A stretch of 64,000 nt of DNA. It comes from a virus. Its lineage: Duplodnaviria; Heunggongvirae; Uroviricota; Caudoviricetes. Below the pieces are notes generated by a model, which was not told the DNA's origin, did no database searches, and worked only from the letters and a program-made list of their open reading frames with translations. Positions 3,104-63,576 of the stretch are shown piece by piece (position 1 is the first letter of the stretch; every line of letters starts with the position of its first letter). A program made the position numbers and the translations under genes. The DNA lies in IMG/VR virus record IMGVR_UViG_2897358383_000002. The stretch is one strand, 5' to 3'.

Positions 3104-4356
<1,253 letters not shown>

Positions 4357-42539: not shown

Positions 42540-43583
42540 TTAACCTATTGCTACTGGTTTTAACAAACCAGCATCAAGTAGCTTGCGAGTTAACCACTGC
42601 TGGCCTTTACCCGTTAATTGGGGCGTCAGCCGTATCTGGTAGCCATTTTCATCATCCAGCACCACTTCTTTCACCGTGAAATACCCGGCGTTGATGTACT
42701 GTTGGCGCGGTACGTTTTTGCGCGCACCAAAAGCCATGAGAATGCCGTTCTGGCGCAACCATGAGAAAAGGGCGTTTTGCTTAAGTCCAACGACCTTTGC
42801 AAAGTTCCCGATCAGGATTCCATTGGCCGCTGATACCCGGTCGGCAAAATCGACTTTAGGGGCTGCGGCCACCAGCTGCTGTTCCAACTGCATTTTCTGT
42901 TCTGCCAACTCGGCAGCCAGGCGTAGAGCTTCTGGTAATGTTTGGGGGATCGATGGGGCAGGGGAGTTTGCCTGCTGCAATTCTTCCAGTTTGTCGATCA
43001 GCGAACGGCGGACCGCTTTTGACTCACGCGCGGCGACTCGCAAGGCTTGTTTGTAGGTCATGGTGATGACCTCAAAAGAGCGCCCAGCCCTTGTGCCATG
43101 GGATTTTGCACTTTTTGTGTAAAATTCACCTTCAAGTTCATCGAGTATTTTTTCGATGAATTTATTGTTTCTAACCTCTGGTTCTCCACATAACTTGCGT
43201 GCCTCATTGACCATCTTCAACAATGTTTGGCTGTCGATTGTGTCTCCGGTGTTGGGGATGACATTCACGGCTGGTGTTGGCGTAGCTGACGTAACAGGTG
43301 CTGGTTTCTCAACATTCAAATTTTTACCGGTCACTCTATGTGCCTCCTTTCTCATTTCTGCTGCCACTGTTGCGTAACGTAGACGTCCTTGTTCAATCAA
43401 ATAATCCCTGATCTCGGCTATCAGTAGCCTGTTGATCACAGCCTTATCTGTTCGGGTATAAAAACGTCTGGTTATCATGAAATAGTTAGCAATTGCGCCG
43501 GGGATCTCCCGTGTCGGCATACAGGCAGTATGCAAGGCGATCGCTTCGGCTATTTCATTACGGGTGACGAGAGGTGTTTTCAT
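42540..43583 (-). CDS. ant: antirepressor (Ant-like) with phage antirepressor C-terminal domain
   Basis: 347 aa; C-terminal region (FADRVSAANGILIGNFAKV...) shared with KilA; lies downstream of the icd-like ORF. Confidence 0.65.
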   Translation of the reverse strand: MKTPLVTRNEIAEAIALHTACMPTREIPGAIANYFMITRRFYTRTDKAVINRLLIAEIRDYLIEQGRLRYATVAAEMRKEAHRVTGKNLNVEKPAPVTSATPTPAVNVIPNTGDTIDSQTLLKMVNEARKLCGEPEVRNNKFIEKILDELEGEFYTKSAKSHGTRAGRSFEVITMTYKQALRVAARESKAVRRSLIDKLEELQQANSPAPSIPQTLPEALRLAAELAEQKMQLEQQLVAAAPKVDFADRVSAANGILIGNFAKVVGLKQNALFSWLRQNGILMAFGARKNVPRQQYINAGYFTVKEVVLDDENGYQIRLTPQLTGKGQQWLTRKLLDAGLLKPVAIG

Positions 43584-43801: not shown

Positions 43802-44115
43802 AGTTACGGCCTCATTCGTAGGTTTAACAACCTGCGCCCCGCTGCTAAACGGGTGGCAGGACGTGACGGGGTTAGCAGACTGGCACGAATGAAACCAGCA
43901 GGCCGAAGCCTCCCCATCACGCCCCACCATAATTCGGGCGTAACGTGGTTTTACGGACACAAAAATTCCGCAATATCGGATATCTGCGGTTGTCCGCATT
44001 CGTATTCAGGCTGCTAAACCCGGTCGCAGAATTTGCTACGACGGCGGAACTATAAGCCTGAACGATTAAAAGGTCAATATGATGCGAAAAGATAGCATTC
44101 GCGACTTAAAAATAC

Positions 44116-44132
44116 AAATTTATTAGAGCATT
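44116..44132 (-). promoter_or_regulatory. C1-repressor operator-like site
   Basis: Reverse complement aatgctctaataaattt, 16/17; followed by near-palindrome ttgtgcaataaatgcacaaa. Confidence 0.55.
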
Positions 44133-44228
44133 ATTTGTGCAATAAATGCACAAATGGATCTAATAACCTCTTTTTTTTAAAGGCGAAAATATGTACCCTA
44201 AATGGGTTATAAGGCAGGTGAGATTATA

Positions 44229-44360
44229 ATGAGAAGACTATTACTACCGTTATTATTTATGGCCGGGACTGTTAATGCAGCATCAAGCGTAAAGGAGATT
44301 TGTACCGATTATACGAAATACCTTGGGCACGTTTACGCCTTTGCGATCAATGACTATTAA
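44229..44360 (+). CDS. small secreted peptide (43 aa, signal peptide)
   Basis: MRRLLLPLLFMAGTVNAASS... signal-peptide-like N-terminus; AT-rich context. Confidence 0.3.
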   Translation: MRRLLLPLLFMAGTVNAASSVKEICTDYTKYLGHVYAFAINDY

Positions 44361-44363
44361 TCC

Positions 44364-44699
44364 ATGCGTAGGAGTGGATTTATGCTGATTCGTTTGTTTT
44401 TAGTGCTTTCCTTTTTAACATTTAATGTTTTTGCTGATGAAGTTGACTTTTCGAAGGTAGATTGCAATTCAGTGGAAACAAGAAAAGCTCTTATTGAAGA
44501 ATATAACGAAATATTATCGTCATATGGAATAACAGTGGTTGATTCTTATAATCAAAAAACTATTCAGAAAGGAATAAATAAACTGGTTTGTTATGGTGTT
44601 TACCAATATTCAGATGGCTCTTCGGAGTATGTTATTTATAAAGCATACCCAAATAGTCTTGGTGAATTGATTAGTGAGTTTAAACCGATTAATGAGTGA
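44364..44699 (+). CDS. secreted protein (signal peptide)
   Basis: 111 aa; hydrophobic N-terminal segment LIRLFLVLSFLTFNVFA; AT-rich. Confidence 0.45.
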   Translation: MRRSGFMLIRLFLVLSFLTFNVFADEVDFSKVDCNSVETRKALIEEYNEILSSYGITVVDSYNQKTIQKGINKLVCYGVYQYSDGSSEYVIYKAYPNSLGELISEFKPINE

Positions 44700-44706
44700 A
44701 TGGAAA

Positions 44707-45486
44707 ATGAAATTATTTAATGTAATAACATTTTGTTGTGCTATTTTTGCTGGAAGCGCGATAGCTGATAATAAATTGCCAGATTGGCTTTCTACTTCAA
44801 AAAAAGATTATGATTTAGTAAGGGTGTTCTATTTGTCTGGATTTGCCTCGAAAGCAATGAATAATCAATTTGGTTATCATTTTCCATCTGAGTTGGTTAA
44901 TGATTTTAAAGATAATGAATTTGCCGCTCAGGAAAAATGGAATACAATTTCAATTCTATATGGTGAAATAAAATCCATAAGAATGGTGAATAATGAACCA
45001 ATTGTAGAGTTATTTACTCCAGGGGAAAATGCAACGCCACTAAATTATATCAAATTGAAAGTGTTGGATTCAAAACAAAACTCTCTGTTAAAACTAAAAA
45101 AAGGGGATGATATATATGCAGTGTGCTCCGGTGCTAATTTTAGGTTAGTGCCAATTCTGAGCAACTGCACTCCAGCAACTGACGTCATTGATGCTGCACT
45201 CTCTTTTTCTGGTGAATATATGTTCCCTGCTTTTGATTCTTTTTCACCTACTAAGCAAAACGTCAAATATATATTCACAAATCAAGATCCTGTTCAGATG
45301 ATGAATTTTATAGGGTACCTATCCTTAGTCGATACAACGAAGGATAAGAATAAAATGGATATGGTTCGTAAGTGTACGCCTTGGAAGCCGGAATGTTCAC
45401 AACAATTCGTTGATGTAATGGAAGGATTTGATAACATCATGTATAAATATGAGAGGGAATTTAAAAATTACATAGAATTAAAATAG
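44707..45486 (+). CDS. secreted protein (signal peptide); candidate superinfection-exclusion protein
   Basis: About 259 aa from MKLFNVITFCCAIFAGSAIA; AT-rich; sits where P1 carries sim, as recalled. Confidence 0.45.
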   Translation: MKLFNVITFCCAIFAGSAIADNKLPDWLSTSKKDYDLVRVFYLSGFASKAMNNQFGYHFPSELVNDFKDNEFAAQEKWNTISILYGEIKSIRMVNNEPIVELFTPGENATPLNYIKLKVLDSKQNSLLKLKKGDDIYAVCSGANFRLVPILSNCTPATDVIDAALSFSGEYMFPAFDSFSPTKQNVKYIFTNQDPVQMMNFIGYLSLVDTTKDKNKMDMVRKCTPWKPECSQQFVDVMEGFDNIMYKYEREFKNYIELK

Positions 45487-45709
45487 TATTTGAAAGGATA
45501 GTCAATTTAAGTTTTAACAAAACGCCCATTAAAGGGCGTTTTATTGTTTTACTCAAAACAACCTGACTCAAAGCAACCTGATTGTGTGATAACCATATGA
45601 TACTCCTCATTCCATCTACACTACCTACTCTAACTTAATGATACCATATTACTCCCGGACGGCAATATTCCCACTCAATGAACAAATGACTACTCGTAGA
45701 ATCGGTTAA

Positions 45710-46300
<591 letters not shown>

Positions 46301-47899: not shown

Positions 47900-50800
47900 A
47901 TGGAAAGAAAAAACGCCAATATTGACGATGTTATAAGGACAGTTGAAACCGCCAGCGCGAAAGAGCTGGAAGAGCTTGCAGGTATTCGGGAAGCTGTTGA
48001 AGATTTGAAAGGGGAACGAGTTGCAACTGTTGATCCTGTCTCTCGCAGTGTGTCGGCATTAAATCGCACAATCGAAAATTCCCGGCCAGACTTTGTGGCC
48101 AATGCGCCATCAGTAGACCCTATTGTTGACGCAATGAAACGGCTTAATTTAGGGGACGTTTCTCGTATACGGGAGGACAAAGTCACTAACCGTGAACAGC
48201 AGGTTGCACCAACAGCGCACAATCCCCCAAATAGACGAAGAGAGGCAATAACAGAGGATGTTAAAGCACAGCGGTTAGAAACGGTCAAACTCGCTCGTGA
48301 TTTGAGAGGGGGACGCGTTGCAACGGTTGACCCAGTATCTCGCAGTGTGTCGGCATTAAATCGAACAATCGAAAATTCCCGGCCAGACTTTGTGGCCAAT
48401 GCGCCATCAGTAGACCCTATTGTTGACGCAATGAAACGGCTTAATTTAGGGGACGTTTCTCGTGTAGTTCAGGAGGGCATTGCTCAAGAGGAACAGCAGG
48501 CCAAATCAACTACACCAAAGGGTAAAAAAAGACGCAGGAAGGCTATATCAGAGGATATAAAGGCACAACGGACCGAAGCAGCCGAACACGCTCGCGAAAT
48601 GTTCGATCAAAAAGGCGGTGCGCAAAAAAGCCAAAACCAACGCGATGCGCGTGGTCGTTTTATTGGAAAGTCAGGGAGTAAGGCCGCAGCGGAAGATGTC
48701 CGTGCTGAACGTGCTGAAAAGGCCAGGCGCAAAGAGGATGATGAGCGTCTAAATGCTGAATCAGGTTTATTAAAAAAACTGTCAAAAGTAGCTGAAGGCA
48801 TAGGTAACCCTTCAGAGACTCGTGCCGTCGATGCGTTAGGTTATGCCGTTGCTGGTCCATTGTGGGCAGCAGGGAAGGAGCTTGGCGGGATATCAAAAGA
48901 AGTTGGTGGATCGCTTAATGGTGCCAGAAAGTCTATTGCCGATGTGATTCGTGGCAATGACGATAACAGCCGTAGAAAAGGTTTTTTTAGGCGTAAATCG
49001 CAAAATAGTGCCGATGTCGTTCAGGTTAACACCCAAAAACGGACGGTTCAGGAACTTCAGGAGCAGACCAGCGAAATTAAAGAGGGCAATGACAAGATTC
49101 TCAGCGCCCTTGATCAGATAGCCAAAAACACCGGGAAAAAGAAGGGCGGCTTGCTGTCCAAACTATTTAGCCTGTTAGGGAAGGGGGCCGGTGGTATTGC
49201 TTCCCTTATTTTTGGCCGTGGGGTACTAAAGAAAGTTGGCTCGATGGCACTAGGCGCTTTAGGTATAAAAAAAGTTGCAAGCTTATTGGGCTTTGGTGGG
49301 AAAAAAGCTGCTGCCAAAGAAGCTGGCGAATTGGCTACTCGCGGTGCCGGAAAACTTGCAACTAAGGGATTGGGGAAACTAGGTGTTAAGGCTCTTGCAA
49401 AGGGGGCTTTACGCGCAATTCCGCTAGTCGGCACGGTGGCTGGAGGTATCTATGATGCGGTAACCGGTTGGAATGATACAGAAGCACAACGTCGGACCTT
49501 TGGGCTTAAGGATGGGGAAGATCCATCTTTTCAGCAAAAAGCGGCTTATACACTGGCTAACGTTCTCGATATGGGAGGACTGGTATCTGGTATTAGCAGT
49601 GCCATTGGCGGCGTTCTCAAATCACTTGGATTTGAGGATATCGGCAATATGTTGCAATCATTTTCGACGGAAAGTATTGCCCAGGCCATTGATAGTGGGA
49701 TTACCAATTTAGAAACATATATTTCTAACCTTGGTGATACTATATCCACGACATTTAGTGATTATACTGCAAAGATTGGTGATGCTATTTCAGCATGGTT
49801 CAGTGACACAACAAAGAACCTGAACGAAAAATTAGACGCCATCAAAAACTTCTTTACTGTCGATAACCTGAAACAGGTTTTCAGTGATGCAATTGATAGT
49901 GCAATTGATTTCATTAAGAACCCAGGGAAATACATTAAAGAAGCTGGCAGTAATCTATGGAGTGCCGCAAAAGAGCTTTCAGGTGAGGTTGCAGATGCCG
50001 CTGTTCAGAGCACCCCTGTGGCCTGGGTTGCATCAAAGCTAGTCAACAAAGCGGATGCGAAAGAGGTTACACCTGAATTAAAAACACCAGCTAAAGAAAG
50101 TCAGGAGGACAATGCTCCTAAGACTGAATATACCCCTAAAAAGGCTAATATTGTCACTCGTGTTGTAAATGCATCCCTAGATACGGCGAAAGATAGCAAT
50201 AAAACAGTTAAAGAAACTGCTAATCAGATTATCAATGCAAATGCCGTAGAAACGGGCAATAGCGCGTTGCAGAAAATTGATAAAGCTATTGGTCAAAATA
50301 GCTCGTCATCATCGTCGCTTAATACCACTGGCACCAGGAATGACATTCAGAAAGCTGCGGATACCTACAACAATGGCAACTTGGATGTAAAAGTCGGAAG
50401 TCTTGGCGCTGAAGGTAAGGCAAATCTCGATAAGTTGGCTCCGTATTTTGCCGAACTAGAGAATAAATACGGTCTTCCAGAAGGCACTCTTTACGCGATT
50501 GCTGCAACTGAATCTGGTGGTAATCCGTATGCAAAATCCCAAACCGGTGCTCTGGGGATGTTTCAGTTCACGGGGATTGCTCGTGAAGAGACTGGCTTAG
50601 CTGAAGGTGAATCGTTTGATCCTGTGAAATCGGCAGAAGCTGCGGCTCTTCTCATGAGCAAATATCTGAAGCAAGCCAATGGAGACTTAAACGAGGCCAT
50701 CACTGCATATAATGCTGGGTTTGGCACTATCAATAAGTGGAAAAAAGGCACAGGTGACTTATCGAAAGAAAACCGTGAGTACGCGATCAAGGTCAATACT

Positions 50801-51595
50801 CATCGTGCTCGCTATTTAGGTGGTGAAATCTATACACCTGGAGCAGGAGCACAGGGTGGGGCGCAATATGGAGTGAGGGGACCACTGCCTGATAACGCTG
50901 TTATCGATCAGTCTACTGGCCTGGCGTTTACCCCTGGTGATAGCCCGTTTGAGAAAGGCGGTCTGGTAGACAAAATTGGCAATGCTGTTGGCGTTAACGA
51001 TCTGGTCAACAAATTCATGAATGGCCGGGGTATGCGTCGGGAAGTCGTTCAGGGAACGCTCGAAGAACGTGCACGAGGGAAGGGGACCGCAACAGCAGCT
51101 GGCAATGTGTATGTTGATACTCCGATGCCAGTTGAAGAGGCGCGTCCGGTGGCCAGCAACTCAAGTTACTTTGACCAACTCGGCGCACAAATGGGGATTG
51201 ATGGACTATTTGATAAACTCCGCAACTCGCCGGGGATGCGGAAAAATAATGCGCCTGAACCAGCCTCCACGTCCCAGGTGACGACTGCCGCCAACGATTT
51301 GCAGCAACCAACCGGTCGTATGCAGATAGACGGACAGGTTATTAGTGACCTTGGCGGCTCCGGTGCCAAGCCGACAATGCAGTTGGCTGATAATACCGTT
51401 TCACTTGATGGTGAAACGAAGCGGCTGTTTGCGCAGATGACCTCATTGCTTGCCAGGATTGAAGAGCACACTAAAGACTCGGCGAAAGGCCAGGGAACTG
51501 TCGTAAAGGTCAGCACGCCTCAACCGGGCGTTATGCGCACGGTGCCACTGTCAATTGATGATCCGTTGATGAATGACTACGCGAGAGTTGATTGA
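47900..51595 (+). CDS. sit: tape-measure-like structural protein with soluble lytic transglycosylase (SLT) domain (P1 Sit-like)
   Basis: 1231 aa; Gly/Ala/Lys-rich repetitive middle; SLT motif region AIAATESGGNPYAKSQTGALGMFQF...AYNAG; two internal 150-bp direct repeats. Confidence 0.8.
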   Translation: MERKNANIDDVIRTVETASAKELEELAGIREAVEDLKGERVATVDPVSRSVSALNRTIENSRPDFVANAPSVDPIVDAMKRLNLGDVSRIREDKVTNREQQVAPTAHNPPNRRREAITEDVKAQRLETVKLARDLRGGRVATVDPVSRSVSALNRTIENSRPDFVANAPSVDPIVDAMKRLNLGDVSRVVQEGIAQEEQQAKSTTPKGKKRRRKAISEDIKAQRTEAAEHAREMFDQKGGAQKSQNQRDARGRFIGKSGSKAAAEDVRAERAEKARRKEDDERLNAESGLLKKLSKVAEGIGNPSETRAVDALGYAVAGPLWAAGKELGGISKEVGGSLNGARKSIADVIRGNDDNSRRKGFFRRKSQNSADVVQVNTQKRTVQELQEQTSEIKEGNDKILSALDQIAKNTGKKKGGLLSKLFSLLGKGAGGIASLIFGRGVLKKVGSMALGALGIKKVASLLGFGGKKAAAKEAGELATRGAGKLATKGLGKLGVKALAKGALRAIPLVGTVAGGIYDAVTGWNDTEAQRRTFGLKDGEDPSFQQKAAYTLANVLDMGGLVSGISSAIGGVLKSLGFEDIGNMLQSFSTESIAQAIDSGITNLETYISNLGDTISTTFSDYTAKIGDAISAWFSDTTKNLNEKLDAIKNFFTVDNLKQVFSDAIDSAIDFIKNPGKYIKEAGSNLWSAAKELSGEVADAAVQSTPVAWVASKLVNKADAKEVTPELKTPAKESQEDNAPKTEYTPKKANIVTRVVNASLDTAKDSNKTVKETANQIINANAVETGNSALQKIDKAIGQNSSSSSSLNTTGTRNDIQKAADTYNNGNLDVKVGSLGAEGKANLDKLAPYFAELENKYGLPEGTLYAIAATESGGNPYAKSQTGALGMFQFTGIAREETGLAEGESFDPVKSAEAAALLMSKYLKQANGDLNEAITAYNAGFGTINKWKKGTGDLSKENREYAIKVNTHRARYLGGEIYTPGAGAQGGAQYGVRGPLPDNAVIDQSTGLAFTPGDSPFEKGGLVDKIGNAVGVNDLVNKFMNGRGMRREVVQGTLEERARGKGTATAAGNVYVDTPMPVEEARPVASNSSYFDQLGAQMGIDGLFDKLRNSPGMRKNNAPEPASTSQVTTAANDLQQPTGRMQIDGQVISDLGGSGAKPTMQLADNTVSLDGETKRLFAQMTSLLARIEEHTKDSAKGQGTVVKVSTPQPGVMRTVPLSIDDPLMNDYARVD

Positions 51596-51951
51596 TGGCC
51601 AACAATAATGAAATTGATCCTTTACTGACGCTGGAGTTATCCGGCGTAAAAACGTATGAGTCCCAGGAGGAGGCCTGGGGCGCTCGTTTATATGAGTGGC
51701 TAAACACTTATCAGGGTGAGGTATACGGAGATCCGTCATGGGGCAATGTTTTACCGCAGTTTAAACACGAACCGACCAACTTGTCGCATGTTCAAATTGC
51801 GGTTGAGGCAATGCTGTTGCAAAAACTGACGGTAGATTTACCTGACATACCGATTTCTGGCTTGTCAGTAGCCGAGGGAGATGCTTTTGATAAGTTGAAA
51901 ATATCCATTCGTATCAGGGATATAACTATCACACAGGACGTGGTGCTATGA
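51592..51951 (+). CDS. baseplate/tail assembly protein
   Basis: 119-aa ORF overlapping neighbours. Confidence 0.45.
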   Translation: MMANNNEIDPLLTLELSGVKTYESQEEAWGARLYEWLNTYQGEVYGDPSWGNVLPQFKHEPTNLSHVQIAVEAMLLQKLTVDLPDIPISGLSVAEGDAFDKLKISIRIRDITITQDVVL

Positions 51952-53381
51952 GTAAAACAACACCGACTAAAGACAGTATTCGTGCAGAGTTTGAAGAGCT
52001 TGTCGAGAAAGATTCATTCTGGTCGAAGTTTGTCGGCTCTCAATTTGTCTCGATGCTGACATTGTTTATTACCCAGATTGTCTACAGGTGCTTTCAGTAT
52101 GCCGATGCGGCGCTGGCTGAAGGCTTTATATCGACCGCGACGCGGCGTTCCTCTATCCTGGCAGCGGCAGAAACGAATAGTTACGTTGGTACCAAGCCAA
52201 CACCGTCATCGGGGATGATTGAGATCACCGCCACAAGTGAAGATGCCCCAGCGGTAATCCCCAAAAATATGCCTTTAATATCTGACGACCAGTACCCTTA
52301 CATGACTATGGATGTATGCAGGTTGGTTGACGGCACCGGTACGGTAGAAGTGGCACAGTTGGAAATCCAGGAGGTGACATATACCGTTACGGCAGCCAAA
52401 GAATTTCTGGAAGTCGTGTTATCAAAGGCTCTCACTGCTGTCTGCTATAAGCTGGAAGTATTCGTGACGACCGATGGTAAGACCACGCAGTGGTCTTCCA
52501 GCACTATGTTCCGGTTAGCCGGTAGTAAAAGCCAGGTCTACGTTGAGTTTTATAAGCCATCCGAGCAGTTGGGGGTTCGATTCGGTGATGGGCTAATTGG
52601 GCAAATACCGCCAGAAGGCTCGACCATTACACTTAAGGTATGGTGCACCAACGGAGATATAACCCTGGTTGCTGGCCAAAACCTGACGCCTGTCGATTCT
52701 GCGGCTAATTTAGCTAATTTGATTTCAGTTAAGACAACGACACCCATAACCGCAGGTACCGATGCCGAAACAACGGAGATCACACGTAATCGTGCACAAT
52801 ATTACCTTGCCTATGATGATCAGGTCGTATGGGGCGGGGACTATACGTATTTTTTGGTGCGTAACATCCCGGGACTGTCCTGGGTAAAGGCATGGGGCGA
52901 AGGCCAGCAAGAGAAATTAGATGGTGCTTATAATGTTCGGAATATCAATAAGATATTTATTTCAGGATGGCATCCAAACAAAAGCCAGTCAGAGCTTGAA
53001 GAAGTGATCCTGGCTGCCTTTAAGAAGGTGCCGAATGAGTTGAACAAGAAATTCTCGTATAAAGAGGTCAGAAAACTCCCCTTTAAGATCACTATCACTG
53101 GGCGGATATCGGCAAGCCTGACCATTGAGAACGTGACTGATGAGCTGAAGTCGGCACTGGAAACAAAATTTGGGCGTGACTCAACTTTCTTTGATCCGAA
53201 CCGTGTCGGCAAGTACATCCTAATCAAGAAAAAAGACGTTTGGGCATTTATCGAAACGCTGGGTTATTTCCGCGACTTTTATCTGGAATTTGTCGAGTGG
53301 AATGAGTCCAACGGCTTTTACGATTTCGTTTATCTGGATACAGAAAACTCCACCTTTAATATTTCGTATGAGGAGGAGTGA
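51948..53381 (+). CDS. baseplate protein
   Basis: 477-aa ORF in the tail operon. Confidence 0.5.
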   Translation: MSKTTPTKDSIRAEFEELVEKDSFWSKFVGSQFVSMLTLFITQIVYRCFQYADAALAEGFISTATRRSSILAAAETNSYVGTKPTPSSGMIEITATSEDAPAVIPKNMPLISDDQYPYMTMDVCRLVDGTGTVEVAQLEIQEVTYTVTAAKEFLEVVLSKALTAVCYKLEVFVTTDGKTTQWSSSTMFRLAGSKSQVYVEFYKPSEQLGVRFGDGLIGQIPPEGSTITLKVWCTNGDITLVAGQNLTPVDSAANLANLISVKTTTPITAGTDAETTEITRNRAQYYLAYDDQVVWGGDYTYFLVRNIPGLSWVKAWGEGQQEKLDGAYNVRNINKIFISGWHPNKSQSELEEVILAAFKKVPNELNKKFSYKEVRKLPFKITITGRISASLTIENVTDELKSALETKFGRDSTFFDPNRVGKYILIKKKDVWAFIETLGYFRDFYLEFVEWNESNGFYDFVYLDTENSTFNISYEEE

Positions 53382-54217
53382 TGCAGCGTTCCTGGTTTAA
53401 TAACCGGCTTACATCAGCTAAGCAAAAGTCATTACTTTATAAATCATTGGCTGATTTGGTTCAGTCAATGATGGACACCTTTGTTGACCCATGGTTGGAG
53501 CGAATTACCAACCGGAAGTCTATTTTCTCCATGAGCAAGGAGGATCTGGAGACTAGGACAAATGAACTTGGCCAGTTTTTTACTATCAGAACGTCGAATT
53601 CATCTTCCGTTCCGATGTTGTTACAACAGCGGTTTGATGAGATCCATTTTAAGGGTACTGAACGCCCTATAAACCAGACAATTTATCGCGAATTTAACGG
53701 TATATCGGTTTTATGGGATCCAATATATGCTCCGGTGGACTTTGAACGTCATCCCTATGGCACGGTCCTGATTCCAGAAAGCACACTGGAAACCACCGGC
53801 GGCACATTCGGCGAGATGTTTCTGACTTCCAGAGGAATGATCAGTATTCCCATAAACGACCTGGCCCGGACAATGGGTATTACTGGAACGATAGATCAGT
53901 CCGCAATTACAGAAGAAATTCTCAGAAAGTTTAATCAGTTCGTAAAGCCTCTACTGCCACTGCATATAGTGTTTGATGGGCTTACGCTCTATTTGTCGGT
54001 TGTTGTAAATGAACAGGCCGACATGATCACTTTGAATGAGATTTCTGATACCGAAAAAGCATTCTGCTGGTTTGAAACTTCGGATACAACTTCGCTTACT
54101 GAAGTTACGTCGATTAACGCCCCGATCACTGCAACGCCGGGCGGCACTATTGTGAAAGCAACGCCTACGTTTGATCGCACCCGCGCAGATGATTTGCTGT
54201 TGGATAGCGATGCGTGA
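53378..54217 (+). CDS. baseplate/tail-fibre-associated protein
   Basis: 279-aa ORF; a partial inverted copy recurs at the window end. Confidence 0.5.
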   Translation: MMQRSWFNNRLTSAKQKSLLYKSLADLVQSMMDTFVDPWLERITNRKSIFSMSKEDLETRTNELGQFFTIRTSNSSSVPMLLQQRFDEIHFKGTERPINQTIYREFNGISVLWDPIYAPVDFERHPYGTVLIPESTLETTGGTFGEMFLTSRGMISIPINDLARTMGITGTIDQSAITEEILRKFNQFVKPLLPLHIVFDGLTLYLSVVVNEQADMITLNEISDTEKAFCWFETSDTTSLTEVTSINAPITATPGGTIVKATPTFDRTRADDLLLDSDA

Positions 54218-54295
54218 CAATCACCCCGTCCGCAGGGCGGGGTGACAAGTTACTTATCTTACAATGAGGCTTCACAACATTGATTAGGGAAAATC

Positions 54296-54730
54296 ATGTC
54301 TGACGTCTCAACAAACCTCTATAAGAGTCAGTTGTTGGACTATTACTATCAGCGGCGCGCTGAATCGTCCATTAACAAAGGCTCTCGATTTTTAATCAGC
54401 AAGGCCGTTTTCGGTACCAGTTCACTGGTTACTAAGAAAGGAGATGGCACTTATGAGATTGGAGAACTGCCAAAGGCTTTCGATCTGGCAGAACTGACCA
54501 GTCAATTTTGCACCATCAACCTCGTCCCAACCTACTCAGGCGGGATAATTACTGTCCGAATGGACCTTGATCAAAGTCAGTTGCAGGAAGGGAAAAACTA
54601 CCCATTCAACACTCTGGTTGTTCTGGATAACGAGAATAAGCCAATCGCCATTATTTGTGTCCAGGAAGACTCGCTGTATGTGGGCAAAACATATACCGCA
54701 GTTATGGCCATAAACTCGACTACAGCATAA
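54296..54730 (+). CDS. tail-fibre-associated protein
   Basis: 144-aa ORF directly upstream of the tail-fibre gene; identical inverted copy at 63068..63502. Confidence 0.5.
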   Translation: MSDVSTNLYKSQLLDYYYQRRAESSINKGSRFLISKAVFGTSSLVTKKGDGTYEIGELPKAFDLAELTSQFCTINLVPTYSGGIITVRMDLDQSQLQEGKNYPFNTLVVLDNENKPIAIICVQEDSLYVGKTYTAVMAINSTTA

Positions 54731-54741
54731 GGATATGCTTG

Positions 54742-57666
54742 ATGAATGACGTTACAGTTGTTACATCGGTTACTTACCCATCACCCGAGTCGTTGGCTCT
54801 GGTGGCTGATGTGCAATACCACGAACCATATCTGTCAGCCGCTCTAAACCGAAAATTCAGGGGAATTGTTGACCCGGGATTTTATGCTGGTTTCTTGCCT
54901 AAGCCTGGCGGTGGGATGAACCTGTTAATCACCTCAGTGGATGGAGATAAAACCGCTGGCGCGGCGTCAGTGGATATTGGTGAATTCTACCAGGTAACTA
55001 TTCAGCATCGTAAGGATATCTCTCTTGCACTTAACGCAGGCAAGAAATATGCAATTGTGCTGAAGGGAAGATACCTTCTTGGAGAAGATACCTATCAGGT
55101 GAATACCGCGTCACATATTCATGCAGCTGAATTTGTTGCCAGAACCTATACCGATTCATATCAGTTAGGTGATGGGGAACTGCTGGTTTGTACGGTGAAT
55201 ATCCCTGCTGGCGTATCTACCATTACTCAAGAGATGATTGATACATCCGAGCGTATCAACCGCACGATCGGCATTGATATTTCAGACTCTGTAACCAGTA
55301 CCAGAAGTGATGTTGCTGCGAGTTCGCTGGCAGTTAAAAAAGCCTACGATCTGGCGAAAAGCAAGTATACGGCGCAGGATGCAAGCACAACGCAAAAGGG
55401 ATTAGTTCAGCTCAGTAGTGCCACTAACAGTACGTCCGAAGTGCTGGCCGCCACACCGAAAGCTGTCAAGGCTGCATATGACCTGGCTAACGGGAAGTAT
55501 ACAGCCCAGGATGCAACCACGACACAAAAAGGGATAGTTCAGCTCAGTAGCGACACCAACAGCACTTCTGAAACATTAGCTGCAACGCCAAAAGCGGTTA
55601 AAGCTGCATACGATCTAGCAGCCGGAAAGGCACCATCCAGTCATACACATCCCTGGAATCAGATCACTGGTGTGCCAACAGCTTCATTGACAGCGAAAGG
55701 CATCACTCAGCTCAGTAGTGCCACTAACAGCACGTCTGAAGTGCTGGCCGCCACACCGAAAGCTGTCAAGGCTGCATATGACCTGGCTAACGGGAAGTAT
55801 ACAGCCCAGGATGCAACCACGACACAAAAAGGGATAGTTCAGCTCAGTAGCGACACCAACAGCACTTCTGAAACATTAGCTGCAACGCCAAAAGCGGTTA
55901 AAGCTGCATACGATCTAGCAGCCGGAAAGGCACCATCCAGTCATACACATCCCTGGAATCAGATCACTGGTGTGCCAACAGCTTCATTGACAGCGAAAGG
56001 CATCACTCAGCTCAGTAGTGCCACTAACAGCACGTCTGAAGTGCTGGCCGCCACACCGAAAGCTGTCAAGGCTGCATATGACCTGGCTAACGGGAAGTAT
56101 ACAGCCCAGGATGCAACCACGACACAAAAAGGGATAGTTCAGCTCAGTAGCGACACCAACAGCACTTCTGAAACATTAGCTGCAACGCCAAAAGCGGTTA
56201 AAGCTGCATACGATCTAGCAGCCGAAAAAGCACCATCCAGTCATACACATCCCTGGAATCAGATTACTGGTGTGCCAACAGCTTCATTGACAGCGAAAGG
56301 CATCACTCAGCTCAGTAGTGCCACTAACAGCACGTCTGAAGTGCTGGCCGCCACACCGAAAGCTGTCAAGGCTGCATATGACCTGGCTAACGGGAAGTAT
56401 ACAGCCCAGGATGCAACCACGACACAAAAAGGGATAGTTCAGCTCAGTAGCGACACCAACAGCACTTCTGAAACATTAGCTGCAACGCCAAAAGCGGTTA
56501 AAGCTGCATACGATCTAGCAGCCGGAAAGGCACCATCCAGTCATACACATCCCTGGAATCAGATCACTGGTGTGCCAACAGCTTCATTGACAGCGAAAGG
56601 CATCACTCAGCTCAGTAGTGCCACTAACAGCACGTCTGAAGTGCTGGCCGCCACACCGAAAGCTGTCAAGGCTGCATATGACCTGGCTAACGGGAAGTAT
56701 ACAGCCCAGGATGCAACCACGACACAAAAAGGGATAGTTCAGCTCAGTAGCGACACCAACAGCACTTCTGAAACATTAGCTGCAACGCCAAAAGCAGTTA
56801 AAGCTGCATACGATCTAGCAGCCGGAAAGGCACCATCCAGTCATACACATCCCTGGAATCAGATCACTGGTGTGCCAACAGCTTCATTGACAGCGAAAGG
56901 CATCACTCAGCTCAGTAGTGCCACTAACAGCACGTCTGAAGTGCTGGCCGCTACACCGAAAGCTGTCAAGGCTGCATATGATTTGGCTAATGGAAAGCAA
57001 GCGGCAGACGCTACGCTCACTGCTCTAGCGGCACTAGCTACCGCAGCAGATAAACTCCCTTATTTCACAGGGGTTGATCGTGCCGCGTTAACTGCACTGA
57101 CAAGTGTTGGACGTGCAATTCTTAGTAAGCCCAGTATTCAGAGCGTTCTTAATTACCTTGGTTTAGGGGAAGGCTCGGCGCTGCCCGTTGGTGTACCTGT
57201 TCCATGGCCCTCAGCCACACCACCAACGGGGTGGCTGAAATGTAACGGAGCAGCATTTTCTTCTGAAAAGTACCCAAATCTGGCAAAGGTTTACCCAACG
57301 TTAAAATTACCTGATTTACGCGGTGAGTTTATCCGTGGTTGGGATGATTCGAGAGGGATTGATACAGGGCGTTCATTGCTAAGTGGTCAGACTGCAACAT
57401 TTATTCGTACAGCTTTGCAGGATTATTACGGTGTCGATCTGACTACTAATGTCAAAGTAGGTATCGCTTATGCTACTGCTGATTCTGTTATAACTGTTGG
57501 AAACCCTGCTAATCCTAAAGCAGGAGATAATAGCGATTATGTTCCAGCATCATCAGATAACTCCATAACAGGCACTCAAAGGACGGCAGAGGATAATTTT
57601 ACCGGGGCATGGATATCAATGCGCCCCCGCAACGTTGCTTTTAATTACATCGTAAGGGCAGCATGA
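54742..57666 (+). CDS. tail fibre protein (constant part fused to currently expressed variable C-terminal cassette 1)
   Basis: 974 aa from ATG at 54742 (RBS AAGGA); five 100-aa tandem repeats; C-terminus ends with conserved RPRN(I/V)AFNYIVRAA shared by all cassettes. Confidence 0.85.
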   Translation: MNDVTVVTSVTYPSPESLALVADVQYHEPYLSAALNRKFRGIVDPGFYAGFLPKPGGGMNLLITSVDGDKTAGAASVDIGEFYQVTIQHRKDISLALNAGKKYAIVLKGRYLLGEDTYQVNTASHIHAAEFVARTYTDSYQLGDGELLVCTVNIPAGVSTITQEMIDTSERINRTIGIDISDSVTSTRSDVAASSLAVKKAYDLAKSKYTAQDASTTQKGLVQLSSATNSTSEVLAATPKAVKAAYDLANGKYTAQDATTTQKGIVQLSSDTNSTSETLAATPKAVKAAYDLAAGKAPSSHTHPWNQITGVPTASLTAKGITQLSSATNSTSEVLAATPKAVKAAYDLANGKYTAQDATTTQKGIVQLSSDTNSTSETLAATPKAVKAAYDLAAGKAPSSHTHPWNQITGVPTASLTAKGITQLSSATNSTSEVLAATPKAVKAAYDLANGKYTAQDATTTQKGIVQLSSDTNSTSETLAATPKAVKAAYDLAAEKAPSSHTHPWNQITGVPTASLTAKGITQLSSATNSTSEVLAATPKAVKAAYDLANGKYTAQDATTTQKGIVQLSSDTNSTSETLAATPKAVKAAYDLAAGKAPSSHTHPWNQITGVPTASLTAKGITQLSSATNSTSEVLAATPKAVKAAYDLANGKYTAQDATTTQKGIVQLSSDTNSTSETLAATPKAVKAAYDLAAGKAPSSHTHPWNQITGVPTASLTAKGITQLSSATNSTSEVLAATPKAVKAAYDLANGKQAADATLTALAALATAADKLPYFTGVDRAALTALTSVGRAILSKPSIQSVLNYLGLGEGSALPVGVPVPWPSATPPTGWLKCNGAAFSSEKYPNLAKVYPTLKLPDLRGEFIRGWDDSRGIDTGRSLLSGQTATFIRTALQDYYGVDLTTNVKVGIAYATADSVITVGNPANPKAGDNSDYVPASSDNSITGTQRTAEDNFTGAWISMRPRNVAFNYIVRAA
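55321..57000 (+). repeat. 300-bp tandem repeats (about 5.5 units, each with two diverged 150-bp sub-repeats) inside the tail-fibre gene
   Basis: Near-identical units starting at 55621, 55921, 56221, 56521, 56821 with a diverged unit before. Confidence 0.9.
57145..57170 (+). other. candidate invertase crossover site A (hix/gix-like), junction of constant tail-fibre part and cassette 1
   Basis: Start of the homology block shared by all cassettes; attaccTTGGTTTaggggaagg resembles hix/gix half-sites. Confidence 0.4.
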
Positions 57667-57683
57667 AAACGTTGGTTTGGGGG
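57658..57683 (+). other. candidate crossover site B
   Basis: gcatGAAAACGTTGGTTTgggggaagg, imperfect dyad resembling hix (TTCTTGAAAACCAAGGTTTTTGATAA as recalled). Confidence 0.4.
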
Positions 57684-58105
57684 AAGGCTCTGCACTGCCT
57701 GTTGGTGTGCCCGTTCCGTGGCCCTTAGAAACACCACCAACGGGCTGGCTAAAATGTAACGGAGCAGCATTTTCTTCTGAAATGTATCCCAAACTGGCAA
57801 AAGCCTACCCCACCAATAAATTACCGGATTTACGCGGTGAATTTATCCGTGGCTGGGATGATGGGCGCGGGATTGATGCGGGACGTACCCTGCTTTCAGG
57901 GCAGGATGGTACAAGTTTTTCTCATTACGGAGGTAATTTCGACATTGGGTCTGGTCATTCAATCAATAACTATGACCAAATTGTTTCTAACCAACCAGGA
58001 TTTTCCCGTTTTTCATTTGCAGGGCCTTCACGAGGTGATGGGGTTAATTATGTAACCATTCGTCCTCGTAACATTGCGTTTAATTATATCGTAAGGGCGG
58101 CATGA
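57677..58105 (+). CDS. silent alternative tail-fibre C-terminal cassette 2
   Basis: Begins with conserved GEGSALPVGVPVPWP...PTGWLKCNGAAFSS and ends ...RPRNIAFNYIVRAA; distinct variable middle. Confidence 0.6.
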   Translation: MGEGSALPVGVPVPWPLETPPTGWLKCNGAAFSSEMYPKLAKAYPTNKLPDLRGEFIRGWDDGRGIDAGRTLLSGQDGTSFSHYGGNFDIGSGHSINNYDQIVSNQPGFSRFSFAGPSRGDGVNYVTIRPRNIAFNYIVRAA

Positions 58106-58123
58106 AAACGTTGGTTTGGGGGA
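58098..58123 (+). other. candidate crossover site C
   Basis: Same catgaaaacgttggtttggggg motif as site B. Confidence 0.4.
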
Positions 58124-58574
58124 AGGCTCTGCACTGCCCGTTGGCGTGCCCGTTCCGTGGCCATCAGCCACACCTCCAACGGGGTGGCTGAAATGCAATG
58201 GCGCAGCATTTTCTTCTGAAAAGTACCCAAATCTGGCAAAGGTTTACCCAACGTTAAAATTACCTGATTTACGCGGTGAGTTTATCCGTGGTTGGGATGA
58301 TGGGCGAGGTGTGGATGCGGGAAGGGTCATCTTAAGCATACAGGGGTGGTTAACAGGAAGTCATTATCATAATATTCGGTCATGGGACGCGTGGGATAAC
58401 ACGGTATTGGTGCCAAATGACAGAGGGGGGGATAGCCTGTTGTCGACAGATAACGCCGTCCAAGAAGGAGCGATTAATGGTAAATTTACCAGTCAATACA
58501 GAACGGAGTTATCTGGGGGGAATGAAACCCGCCCACGTAACATTGCCTTCAATTATATTGTGAGAGCAGCATAA
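58116..58574 (+). CDS. silent alternative tail-fibre C-terminal cassette 3
   Basis: Same conserved ends as cassette 2 with a different variable core. Confidence 0.6.
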   Translation: MGEGSALPVGVPVPWPSATPPTGWLKCNGAAFSSEKYPNLAKVYPTLKLPDLRGEFIRGWDDGRGVDAGRVILSIQGWLTGSHYHNIRSWDAWDNTVLVPNDRGGDSLLSTDNAVQEGAINGKFTSQYRTELSGGNETRPRNIAFNYIVRAA

Positions 58575-59185
58575 TGGATAATGCGATATTAAATAGCGAA
58601 CTTATAGCCATACAGGCAGGAAACATTATCGTTTATAACTATGATGGTGGTAATCGGGAATATATTTCTGCATCAACTGAATATCTTGCTGTTGGCGTTG
58701 GTATTCCGGCACATTCTTGTTTGGATGCTCCAGGCTCACATAAAGCAGGTTATGCGATTCTCCGTTCAGAGGATTTAAGTTCATGGGAGTATGTGCCAGA
58801 TCATCGTGGCGAAACTGTCTATAGCATTGACACAGGGAATCCCGAAGAAATCACGGTGTTGGGTGACTATCCGGAAAATACAACCACTATCGCCCCGCTA
58901 ACACCATACGACAAATGGGATGGAGAGAAATGGGTGGTTGATACTGAGGCTCAACATAGTGCAGCTGTAGAGGCAGCAGAAACAAAACGTCAGTCATTGA
59001 TTGATACTGCGATGGATTCCATTAGTCTGATTCAGTTGAAATTACGGGCTGGACGGAAGTTGACGCAGGCAGAAACCACGCAGCTTAACTCCGTGCTAGA
59101 TTATATAGACGAGCTGAACGCGATGGATTTAACCACGGCACCAGATCTCAACTGGCCTGAAAAACAACTTTCTACAGCCAGTTGA
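58574..59185 (+). CDS. tail fibre assembly chaperone (Tfa/U-like)
   Basis: 203 aa; typical Tfa N-terminal region; located inside the cassette region. Confidence 0.75.
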   Translation: MDNAILNSELIAIQAGNIIVYNYDGGNREYISASTEYLAVGVGIPAHSCLDAPGSHKAGYAILRSEDLSSWEYVPDHRGETVYSIDTGNPEEITVLGDYPENTTTIAPLTPYDKWDGEKWVVDTEAQHSAAVEAAETKRQSLIDTAMDSISLIQLKLRAGRKLTQAETTQLNSVLDYIDELNAMDLTTAPDLNWPEKQLSTAS

Positions 59186-59190
59186 TATAA

Positions 59191-59688
59191 TTAATCCGCC
59201 CTCACAATATAATTAAATGCAATATTACGAGGGCGGGTTTCTAAGCCAGCAGTACCTAAATTAGCTACGGACTGTTTATATGTTTTAAAAGTTCCATAAT
59301 TAGGGGCTGGCAATCCTGCATCGCTTGTGTTCCCCCATCTGATAACTCCCGTATTACCACTAGTAGCCCATGCCTCGTCAAAGTAGAAATTAATTGAGCT
59401 GTCAGTTGCTACGGTTGATTTTGACGGTAATCCGTGAGCATGATCCTCCGTTGCATATCCTTGCTCGCTTAAAATAGAGCGACCTGGATCAATCCCGCGC
59501 CCGTCATCCCAGCCACGAATGAACTCACCACGTAAATCAGGCAATTTATTTGTCGGGTAAGCCTTTGCCAGATTTGGGTACTTTTCAGAAGAAAATGCTG
59601 CACCATTGCATTTCAGCCACCCCGTTGGAGGTGTGGCTGAAGGCCACGGAACAGGGACACCAACAGGTAATGCAGAGCCTTCTCCCAA
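59191..59688 (-). CDS. silent alternative tail-fibre C-terminal cassette 4 (inverted orientation)
   Basis: Intact 165-aa ORF with conserved N- and C-terminal cassette ends on the minus strand. Confidence 0.6.
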   Translation of the reverse strand: MGEGSALPVGVPVPWPSATPPTGWLKCNGAAFSSEKYPNLAKAYPTNKLPDLRGEFIRGWDDGRGIDPGRSILSEQGYATEDHAHGLPSKSTVATDSSINFYFDEAWATSGNTGVIRWGNTSDAGLPAPNYGTFKTYKQSVANLGTAGLETRPRNIAFNYIVRAD

Positions 59689-59706
59689 ACCAACGTTTTT
59701 ATGCCG
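59681..59706 (-). other. candidate crossover site D (inverted)
   Basis: cccaaaccaacgtttttatg, reverse complement of the site B/C motif. Confidence 0.4.
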
Positions 59707-60135
59707 CCCTTACGATGTAATTAAATGCGATATTTCGTGGACGGGTTACTCCCCATATTACCTCCCTCGTGAATGAAGTGTCGGTGATGATCAAATCCTC
59801 TGTATTGTCATCAGATCCATCCTTGGTGTATGTTTTTTTGAAATGTCCCAGCTCCCATTCATCTTTTGTGTCGTAACCATCATGCTACAAAATATGTCGA
59901 TGCTTTCAGCATTCCTGTCTGAATGCCAATAAAGCACGTCCCGCATCCACCCCGCGCCCATCATCCCAGCCGGAATAAATTCTCCCGTAATCCGGTAATT
60001 TATTGGTGGGTAGCTTTGCCAGATTTGGGTACTTTCAGAAGAAAATGCTGCACCATTGCATTTCAGCCACCCCGTTGGAGGTGTGCTGAGGGCCACGGAA
60101 CGGGACGCCAACAGGCATGCAGAGCCTTCCCCCAA
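59707..60135 (-). pseudogene. degenerate alternative tail-fibre cassette 5 (frameshifted)
   Basis: Conserved cassette ends recognisable across three frames; several indels relative to the other cassettes. Confidence 0.45.
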
Positions 60136-60153
60136 ACCAACGTTTTTTATGCT
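60128..60153 (-). other. candidate crossover site E (inverted)
   Basis: cccccaaaccaacgttttttatg. Confidence 0.4.
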
Positions 60154-63056: not shown

Positions 63057-63067
63057 CAAGCATATCC

Positions 63068-63502: not shown

Positions 63503-63576
63503 GATTTTCCCTAATCAATGTTGTGAAGCCTCATTGTAAGATAAGTAACTTGTCACCCCGCCCTGCGGACGGGGTG

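What the first reader, a model, noticed from the sequence alone, without database searches (positions are those of the whole stretch)
44100..45500. AT-rich islet encoding three signal-peptide proteins at the position of the P1 sim locus
Between the immunity-region C1 operator and the tail operon lies a visibly AT-rich segment encoding a 43-aa, a 111-aa and an approximately 259-aa protein, each with an N-terminal signal-peptide-like segment. P1 carries simABC here, as recalled, and SimC is a secreted exclusion protein. These sequences may be divergent Sim analogues or a different periplasmic exclusion cargo.
Basis: partly seen in the sequence, partly recalled or inferred. Interest (0 to 1): 0.5.

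Follow-up and report, generated by a model that had tools for sequence, protein, structure and literature searches.

The report
The known P1 sim exclusion locus
The AT-rich islet is the already described simA-simB-simC superinfection-exclusion operon of phage P1, carried almost unchanged by a P1-like phage-plasmid, so it is ordinary; two small additions are that "simA" is a cut-down remnant of a longer gene and that SimC contains an OB-fold domain.

Summary
Window 44100-45700 is the lowest-GC stretch of the 64-kb window (0.33 against a mean of 0.47). It lies between the C1 operator Oc4 / C4 RNA and the pmgC-tub-pmgB-sit late operon. It encodes three + strand proteins with Sec-type signal peptides.

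The DNA is 97% identical to P1 simABC. SimA is 42/43 identical, SimB 111/111 and SimC 249/259. The low GC and variability of simABC among P1-like phage-plasmids are already published. So is the function: SimC is a processed exclusion protein that blocks P1 after adsorption.

Three details appear to be additions:
- **simA is a remnant.** It is the 5' part of a 163-215-aa secreted-protein gene that is intact at this locus in related elements. Its TAA stop aligns with a Glu codon there. The annotated simB ATG is an old simA codon, so SimB probably starts at 44382.
- **The slot is a swap site.** Only 135 of 623 related plasmids carry sim; the three alternative cargo types inspected start with signal-peptide or lipoprotein genes.

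Verdict: already known, low interest.

The parts
44116..44132 (-). C1 repressor operator Oc4 (former Op51), at the left edge of the divergent c4 / sim control region
   Evidence: 16/17 match to ATTGCTCTAATAAATTT. It sits at the same position as the P1-annotated Oc4, and the region aligns with P1 without indels.
44138..44164 (+). Predicted sigma-70 promoter PsimA, transferred from the P1 annotation and not tested
   Evidence: P1 annotation at L001 3039-3065, mapped through the gap-free alignment. The window differs from P1 at 5 bases within 44140-44155. My own consensus scan did not pick it up.
44229..44360 (+). simA: a 43-aa remnant (signal peptide plus 26 residues) of a longer gene. P1 annotates it from 44202 as 52 aa.
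   Evidence: 42/43 identical to P1 SimA. A GGTGAG Shine-Dalgarno sequence precedes 44229. It matches positions 1-41 of the 213-position profile phrog_3933. It aligns with the first 39 residues of 163-215-aa proteins at the same locus in L003, L006, L007 and L008.
44358..44360 (+). TAA stop of simA, aligned with a GAA/GAG Glu codon of full-length simA, and in frame with simB
   Evidence: DNA alignment A5. The codon is AAA in pMCR_SCKP-LL83, giving a 156-aa SimA'-SimB fusion. It is TAA in P1, vB_EcoM-673R5 and all 24 IMG/VR contigs that matched the pattern.
44382..44699 (+). simB: a secreted 105-aa protein. P1 annotates it from 44364 as 111 aa.
   Evidence: 111/111 identical to P1 SimB. An AGGAG sequence lies 6 nt upstream of 44382. 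phrog_14329 is 105 positions long and aligns to residues 7-111. The ATG at 44364 lies inside the stretch still homologous to full-length simA. dN/dS is 0.26.
44707..45486 (+). simC (= sim): the 259-aa precursor of the processed exclusion protein. P1 annotates it from 44692 as 264 aa.
   Evidence: 249/259 identical to P1 SimC. The 7-nt gap between the simB stop and this ATG is conserved in L007 and L008, where the upstream MSEWK codons are not. The cluster representative P0001 is 259 aa. dN/dS is 0.17.
44884..45150 (+). OB-fold (tRNA_anti-like) core of SimC, residues about 60-148 in 259-aa numbering
45519..45542 (+). Intrinsic-terminator-like hairpin plus T run that closes the sim operon
   Evidence: 9-bp stem with 5 GC pairs, followed by ATTGTTTT. 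It is conserved in P1 except for one base in the stem.
44345..45681 (.). Replaceable low-GC cassette. The left edge is variable: about 44147 in SJ46-type elements and about 44369 in elements with full-length simA. The right edge is 45681/45682, just before the late promoter LPsit.
   Evidence: Junction coordinates come from blastn against L003-L006 and L008. In the plasmid survey, 623 records match the flanks and 135 carry the whole sim segment.
45682..45733 (+). Conserved right arm containing the late promoter LPsit of the pmgC-tub-pmgB-sit operon, by transfer from the P1 annotation
   Evidence: 95-99.5% identical across L003-L006 and L008 whatever the cargo. P1 annotates LPsit immediately upstream of pmgC.

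Best explanation
This is the simABC (superimmunity, i.e. superinfection-exclusion) operon of a P1-like phage-plasmid of genus Punavirus. It is transcribed divergently from c4-icd-ant and ends at its own terminator before the late tail operon.

Shown here:
- The identity with P1 sim.
- The position and the low GC content.
- Signal-peptide-like N-termini on all three products.
- Purifying selection on simB and simC.
- An OB-fold core in SimC.

From the literature: sim causes exclusion of superinfecting P1, and the protein is processed.

Inferred mechanism: SimC is exported through Sec and its signal peptide is cleaved after AIA. In the periplasm it blocks transfer of incoming P1 DNA across the envelope after adsorption. 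Its OB-fold most likely binds a ligand that appears there only during injection. Candidates are the ejected tape-measure / transglycosylase Sit or tail-tube tip, the DNA itself, or a host inner-membrane entry factor.

SimB is a small periplasmic partner. It always sits 7 nt upstream of simC, which suggests translational coupling and a joint function.

simA in P1-type elements is not an independent accessory gene. It is the first ~48 codons of a longer secreted-protein gene, cut by a deletion and closed by a TAA stop.
For: Identity with P1:
- Searches give 97.4% identity to P1 46610-48172, annotated simA, simB and simC.
- One search gives the protein identities of 42/43, 111/111 and 249/259.

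Context: searches place C4 RNA and Oc4. Searches place ant1, pmgC, tub and pmgB.

Signal peptides and start codons.

Terminator.

Selection: one search gives dN/dS of 0.26 for simB and 0.17 for simC across 21 and 16 intact copies.

Conserved simB-simC pairing at the same slot: a P1-like contig whose SimC is only 39% identical (L007) and L008 both keep the pair with identical 7-nt spacing.

OB-fold.

simA as a remnant.

Literature:
- 'simC superinfection exclusion gene', citing Maillou & Dreiseikelmann 1990, 'purification of the processed protein' (PMC2409434).
- simA, simB and simC are non-essential in a CRISPRi screen (PMC10695390).
- simABC is a low-GC variable region of P1-like phage-plasmids (PMC9603915).
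Against: No evidence contradicts the identity with sim.

The mechanism has several weak points:
- The SimC model is only of moderate confidence (mean pLDDT 55.7, pTM 0.48, residues 141-190 below 50).
- SimC itself is below Pfam's cut-off for PF12869.
- No ligand is known.
- The roles of SimB and SimA have never been tested, as far as I could find.
- As I recall, unverified here, the phenotype was first seen with multicopy clones, so the strength of exclusion from a single-copy prophage is uncertain.
- The signal-peptide calls come from a home-made heuristic, not SignalP.
- The primary papers from 1982, 1989 and 1990 are not in the held library. I know them only through titles and citing sentences.
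Confidence: 0.9

Rival explanations
1. One reading: the three proteins are divergent Sim analogues or a different periplasmic cargo that replaces sim at this slot.
For: Other P1-like elements really do carry different cargo here. Pfam, NCBIfam and PADLOC give no family name for any of the three proteins.
Against: The DNA is 97.4% identical to P1 sim over the whole locus. SimB is identical to P1's, SimA differs at one residue and SimC at ten.
Confidence: 0.01
2. The identity is the same, but the mechanism differs. SimC acts on a host envelope component, such as an inner-membrane or periplasmic factor that P1 needs for DNA translocation. It does not bind a virion protein or the DNA. This would resemble DicB or Cor-type exclusion, which disables a host entry factor.
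For: The closest solved fold is a bacterial periplasmic lipoprotein of unknown ligand (3f1z). OB-folds also bind proteins and oligosaccharides (established knowledge). Purifying selection with dN/dS of 0.17 and no hypervariable patch fits a conserved host target better than an arms race with phage proteins.
Against: There is no direct evidence either way, and no P1 inner-membrane entry factor is known to me. Exclusion is reported for P1 itself, but its range against other phages was not checked here.
Confidence: 0.3
3. Exclusion is a multicopy side effect. At prophage copy number, the operon's selected role is something else in the envelope, for example host fitness or protection against unrelated phages or colicins.
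For: The slot holds many unrelated envelope cargos. Examples are a weakly TraT-like lipoprotein, DUF5384, a YfjT-like protein and an SH3 protein, which suggests a general accessory-envelope-gene site. The sim genes are dispensable for lytic growth. A 99.8%-identical phage (vB_EcoM-673R5) and one IMG/VR contig carry a frameshifted simC.
Against: simB and simC are under purifying selection. The pair is kept in a P1-like contig whose SimC is only 39% identical. Published work assigns exclusion to sim.
Confidence: 0.15

Closest known systems
Bacteriophage P1 simABC (superimmunity / superinfection exclusion; Devlin et al. 1982, Kliem & Dreiseikelmann 1989, Maillou & Dreiseikelmann 1990, Lobocka et al. 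2004)
   Same: The locus, order and orientation are the same, as are the flanking Oc4 operator and LPsit promoter. The DNA is 97% identical. SimB is identical, SimA is 42/43 and SimC 249/259.
   Different: - SimC has ten substitutions.
- The window has 15-bp and 23-bp insertions relative to P1 between the terminator and LPsit.
- Five bases differ in the predicted PsimA region.
Nothing suggests a functional difference.
Pfam PF12869 tRNA_anti-like OB-fold proteins (structure 3f1z, putative nucleic-acid-binding lipoprotein of Klebsiella pneumoniae)
   Different: SimC scores below the family cut-off (15.9 against 23.5 bits). It carries an extra N-terminal helix and a roughly 110-residue Cys-containing C-terminal helical region. 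It is not a lipoprotein, because there is no lipobox. The family has no established function.
Other envelope-located superinfection-exclusion proteins that block DNA entry (P22 SieA, T4 Imm/Sp, phi80/N15 Cor, T5 Llp, Streptococcus phage Ltp)
   Same: The outcome is the same: the phage adsorbs but its DNA does not reach the cytoplasm. The protein is made by the resident prophage and acts outside the cytoplasm.
   Different: I did not compare Sim directly with these proteins. Nothing named in the family, solved-structure or fold searches was one of them. The only link is one BFVD fold match at E about 1e-3 to a phage 'host cell surface-exposed lipoprotein'. SieA and Imm are inner-membrane proteins, and Cor, Llp and Ltp are lipoproteins, whereas SimC looks like a soluble periplasmic protein.
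Full-length SimA family (phrog_3933; 'simA domain protein' in RefSeq; gp35 of phage vB_EcoM-Ro157c2YLVW)
   Same: The first 39 residues, comprising the signal peptide and SSVKEICTDYTKYLGHVY.FA, are shared with the window's SimA. The upstream DNA is 94% identical.
   Different: The window keeps only the first 43 codons and then a TAA stop. The remaining 120-170 residues are absent.

Membership tests
P1 sim locus (simA-simB-simC) | Sequence orthology to P1 SimA, SimB and SimC over their full length | tested here: met
   42/43 (49/52 in the long form), 111/111 and 249/259 identical. DNA is 97.4% identical.
P1 sim locus (simA-simB-simC) | Position between the C1 operator Oc4 / c4 and the late promoter LPsit / pmgC, transcribed away from c4-icd-ant | tested here: met
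   Oc4 is at 44116-44132 (-), C4 RNA at 43849-43934 (-), sim is on the + strand and pmgC is at 45734.
P1 sim locus (simA-simB-simC) | SimC made as a precursor with a cleavable N-terminal signal peptide ('processed protein') | tested here: inconclusive
   The heuristic finds an n-h-c region and an AIA|DNK site. No SignalP run was possible and processing was not measured. Processing is reported only in the title of Maillou & Dreiseikelmann 1990.
P1 sim locus (simA-simB-simC) | Confers exclusion of superinfecting P1 at a step after adsorption | not testable with these tools
   Phenotype known from the literature only.
Pfam PF12869 tRNA_anti-like (OB-fold) | Score at or above the gathering threshold (23.5 bits) | tested here: not met
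   SimC scores 15.8-15.9 bits, E 0.01. Its sequence relatives P0013 (53.8 bits) and P0014 (25.9 bits) do pass. SimC is therefore a distant relative by transitivity, not a scored member.
Pfam PF12869 tRNA_anti-like (OB-fold) | Five-stranded OB barrel with a helix between strands 3 and 4, superposable on 3f1z | tested here: met
Bacterial lipoproteins (as in Cor, Llp, Ltp, TraT exclusion proteins) | Lipobox [LVI][ASTVI][GAS]C at the end of the signal peptide | tested here: not met
   By inspection, the N-termini printed have no lipobox in SimA, SimB or SimC. SimC has ITFCC, with F at position -1. The SJ46-type alternative cargo does have one (LLSGC).

The most novel reading that the evidence does not exclude
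Two modest readings are not excluded.

(1) The sim slot may be a dedicated exchange site for envelope-targeted cargo in P1-like phage-plasmids. Conserved arms would serve as recombination handles. The left arm is the Oc4 operator up to the signal-peptide-coding 5' end of simA, and the right arm is LPsit. P1's 'simA' and the first six annotated codons of 'simB' would then be scars of one such event.

(2) SimC may exclude by using a periplasmic OB-fold to capture something that exists in the periplasm only during injection, namely DNA or the ejected Sit / tube tip. That would be the first exclusion protein assigned to the otherwise function-less PF12869 family.
Probability: 0.3. Interest if true: 0.35.

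Novelty: already known. Interest (0 to 1): 0.12.

Why it matters
As a scan hit it matters little. It re-finds a locus named in 1982, sequenced in 1990 and annotated in the 2004 P1 genome. Its low GC and variability were described in 2022.

The side results could help anyone who finally works out how Sim blocks P1 DNA entry, which appears still unknown:
- They suggest corrected starts for SimB (44382) and SimC (44707).
- They show simA is a remnant rather than an 'accessory function'.
- They give SimC a fold and a testable binding face.
- They show simB-simC is the conserved functional pair.

Tried and rejected
- **Single-sequence AlphaFold of SimC.** pLDDT was 30.9 and the model was unusable.
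- **Sequence search of solved structures with SimC.** No hit even at E 10.
- **NCBIfam and PADLOC on all three proteins.** No meaningful hit; NCBIfam gave only two far-below-cut-off SimB matches and PADLOC none.
- **SimB and SimC as paralogues.** Rejected; BLASTP E was 0.75.
- **Diversifying selection on SimC.** This was suggested by 10 amino-acid changes against P1 versus none in SimB. It is rejected because dN/dS is 0.17-0.18, similar to neighbouring genes.
- **The SimA'-SimB read-through fusion as the common state.** Rejected; 26 of 27 copies have TAA.
- **Wider homologue searches.** SimC has only 14 hits at E <= 1e-3 among 1.84 billion representatives, most of them fragments. SimB has 12, all from Enterobacteriaceae P1-like contexts. 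No deeper alignment could be built.
- **Context of the most distant SimC-like protein, P0014.** The contig is only 1 kb and gives no information.
- **The Lobocka 2004 genome paper and the 1982-1990 primary papers.** They are not held in the library, so their details are cited only through other papers.

Full report
**1. The observation**

The segment is real and stands out.
- GC is 0.33 across 44100-45681, against 0.472 for the window and 0.48-0.50 for the immediate flanks.
- It is the lowest-GC 1.3-kb stretch of the whole 64 kb, and the next trough is 0.416.

Three consecutive + strand ORFs fill it:
- 44202-44360, 52 aa, or 43 aa from the internal ATG at 44229.
- 44364-44699, 111 aa, or 105 aa from 44382.
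- 44674-45486, 270 aa from GTG, 264 aa from 44692, or 259 aa from 44707.

A simple n/h/c-region and -3/-1 rule check finds a Sec-type signal peptide at each N-terminus. The predicted sites are VNA|ASS, VFA|DEV and AIA|DNK. No lipobox is present in the printed N-termini, and no further strongly hydrophobic segment was found in SimB or SimC.

- A C1 operator lies at 44116-44132.
- C4 antisense RNA and its a1b1 target lie at 43849-43934 and 44003-44055 on the - strand.
- ant1 is at 42540-43583 on the - strand.
- pmgC, tub, pmgB and sit begin at 45734.

**2. What it is**

Megablast of 44100-45700 hits phage P1 at 97.4% identity over P1 46610-48172, annotated simC, simB and simA.
- Protein identities to P1 are SimA 42/43 (49/52 in the annotated long form), SimB 111/111 and SimC 249/259.
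- Some E. coli plasmids are 100% identical.
- The window as a whole is a Punavirus phage-plasmid. Where it was searched (1-25000 and 50001-64000), the closest phage record is vB_EcoM-673R5.

The literature already covers the essentials:
- simC is the exclusion gene and its protein is processed (PMC2409434 citing Maillou & Dreiseikelmann 1990).
- All three genes are non-essential (PMC10695390).
- simABC is one of eight variable, low-GC regions of P1-like phage-plasmids (PMC9603915).

**3. Anatomy and gene starts**

The operon is divergent from c4-icd-ant. P1 annotation places a predicted PsimA just right of Oc4. That stretch aligns without gaps but differs at five bases in the window. A clean intrinsic terminator follows simC at 45519-45542.

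Shine-Dalgarno contexts favour the internal starts:
- GGTGAG precedes 44229.
- AGGAG precedes 44382.
- For simC only a weak GGA-type element precedes 44707, so that start rests on the spacing evidence below.

The simB stop and the simC ATG at 44707 are 7 nt apart. This spacing is also found in L007, a P1-like contig whose SimC is only 39% identical, and in L008, where the codons upstream of that ATG are not conserved. The likely products are therefore 43, 105 and 259 aa.

**4. simA is a remnant**

SimA matches only positions 1-41 of a 213-position phage family, phrog_3933. At the same slot, several related elements encode 163-215-aa proteins whose first 39 residues are SimA:
- phage vB_EcoM-Ro157c2YLVW;
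- an E. fergusonii plasmid, where RefSeq calls the protein 'simA domain protein';
- contig L008;
- the divergent contig L007.

In L007 the order is full-length simA, then simB, then simC.

DNA alignment gives three results:
- The window's TAA at 44358-44360 lies opposite a GAA/GAG Glu codon of the full-length gene.
- Homology continues through TCC ATG CG, so the P1-annotated simB ATG at 44364 is the old simA Met codon.
- Homology stops at about 44369-44372.

simA and simB are in the same frame. One K. pneumoniae plasmid has AAA instead of TAA, and so a 156-aa SimA'-SimB fusion. P1, vB_EcoM-673R5 and all 24 IMG/VR contigs that matched the pattern have TAA.

The simplest history is a deletion from simA codon ~48 to just upstream of the simB ribosome-binding site, followed by a nonsense mutation. 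I did not find this stated in the papers I could read. I could not read the 2004 genome paper.

**5. SimB and SimC as proteins**

Both families are tiny.
- SimC has 14 hits at E <= 1e-3 among 1.84 billion representatives. Only three are near full length, at 83%, 39% and 28% identity.
- SimB has 12 hits, with the most distant at 59% identity.

Across the copies I collected, dN/dS is 0.26 for simB (21 intact copies) and 0.17 for simC (16 intact copies). Both are maintained genes and there is no sign of an arms race. Two copies, L002 and L014, have a disrupted simC reading frame.

SimC's middle part is an OB-fold, supported by four lines of evidence:
- It scores weakly on PF12869 tRNA_anti-like (15.9 bits against a cut-off of 23.5), but its relatives P0013 and P0014 pass at 53.8 and 25.9 bits.
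- An AlphaFold model built from the nine-sequence alignment has mean pLDDT 55.7 and pTM 0.48, and shows helix, beta1-3, helix, beta4-5 at residues 60-148 with pLDDT 61-72.
- Foldseek against viral models returns phage tRNA_anti-like proteins and one 'host cell surface-exposed lipoprotein'.

The N-terminal helix and the C-terminal helical part have no informative match. The mature protein has four Cys residues.

**6. The slot in other elements**

Of 623 PLSDB plasmids that match the flanks, 135 (22%) carry the whole sim segment. The alternatives inspected are:
- **Ro157c2YLVW type.** Full-length SimA plus a 158-aa secreted protein; its L008 counterpart is PF27224 YfjT.
- **SJ46 type.** A 170-aa lipoprotein with weak TraT / glycine-zipper similarity, plus a DUF5384 protein with a signal peptide.
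- **E. fergusonii type.** SimA of 163 aa, a 168-aa secreted protein and an SH3-domain protein.

The right junction is the same in all of them, at 45681/45682 just before LPsit. Left junctions are at about 44147 or about 44369. L008 carries simB-simC followed by full-length simA and the YfjT-like gene.

**7. Mechanism**

Shown here:
- Export signals on all three products.
- The OB-fold core of SimC.
- The conserved simB-simC pair with tight spacing.
- Purifying selection.

From the literature: exclusion of P1 after adsorption, and processing of the protein.

Inferred: mature SimC sits in the periplasm and uses the OB-fold to bind something needed for, or present only during, DNA transfer. SimB is its partner, and simA' is dispensable. 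I hold the general mechanism (periplasmic block of DNA entry by SimC) at about 0.7. I have no preference that I can defend between a phage-derived ligand and a host target. The low dN/dS mildly favours a conserved target.

**8. Verdict**

Interest is low. The remnant nature of simA, the suggested corrected starts and the OB-fold assignment are small but usable additions.

Noticed in passing
L002 (phage vB_EcoM-673R5, ON470615.2) 3107-3884; also IMG/VR locus L014: In the phage record closest to this window (99.8% identical), simC does not read through. It is annotated as a 111-aa 'SimC' plus a 121-aa hypothetical protein, and my extraction shows 21 stops in frame. L014 is also shifted. This is either a real pseudogene or a sequencing error. 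The window's simC is intact.
   Followed up: partly
L009 (K. pneumoniae pMCR_SCKP-LL83, MF510496.1) 430-900: The simA stop codon is AAA here, so SimA' and SimB are read as one 156-aa protein with two hydrophobic segments. The published table of that plasmid calls the fusion 'simB'.
   Followed up: yes
window 45559-45573 and 45629-45651: The window has 15-bp and 23-bp insertions relative to P1 in the non-coding stretch between the simC terminator and LPsit. The first duplicates a CAACCTGA motif (caacctgactcaaagcaacctgatt).
   Followed up: no
window 44137-44155: The window has a perfect short palindrome, TGTGCAATAAATGCACA, over the predicted PsimA -35 region. P1 has TGTTTAATAAATACACA there, and the five base differences from P1 cluster in this stretch. 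This may be a regulatory variant.
   Followed up: no
window 54655-63500: The tail-fibre region holds a 1003-aa fibre gene with 12 fibre repeats. It is followed by several short ORFs on both strands, each starting with a Phage Tail Collar domain (57677-58105, 58116-58574, 59191-59688 on the - strand), a tail-fibre assembly gene (58574-59185), and inverted fibre-repeat ORFs (60820-61530 and 62181-63143 on the - strand). It resembles an invertible C-segment with more alternative tips than P1's. P1-like phage records cover only about half of 50001-64000.
   Followed up: partly
window 1-25000: P1 covers only 75% of this part. The closest phage record annotates a type I restriction system (HsdR, S subunit) there, which is not among P1's annotated features in this stretch.
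   Followed up: no
window 7844, 13609, 23460, 23471, 26993, 42445, 44116: There are seven matches to the 17-bp C1 operator consensus at up to 2 mismatches, against 0.01 expected by chance. They include an overlapping inverted pair at 23460-23487.
   Followed up: no
L004 (SJ46-type plasmid) 823-1335: The cargo that replaces sim in SJ46-type elements begins with a 170-aa lipoprotein (lipobox LLSGC). It has a glycine-zipper segment and sub-threshold similarity to the F-plasmid surface-exclusion protein TraT (23.1 bits against a cut-off of 31).
   Followed up: partly
P1 47270 and 47906 (= inside simC and at the simA/simB junction): A 2008 paper (PMC2409434) reports high-scoring ArgR boxes inside simC and exactly at the simA-simB junction. 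They are untested. The junction box coincides with the deletion scar described in this report.
   Followed up: no
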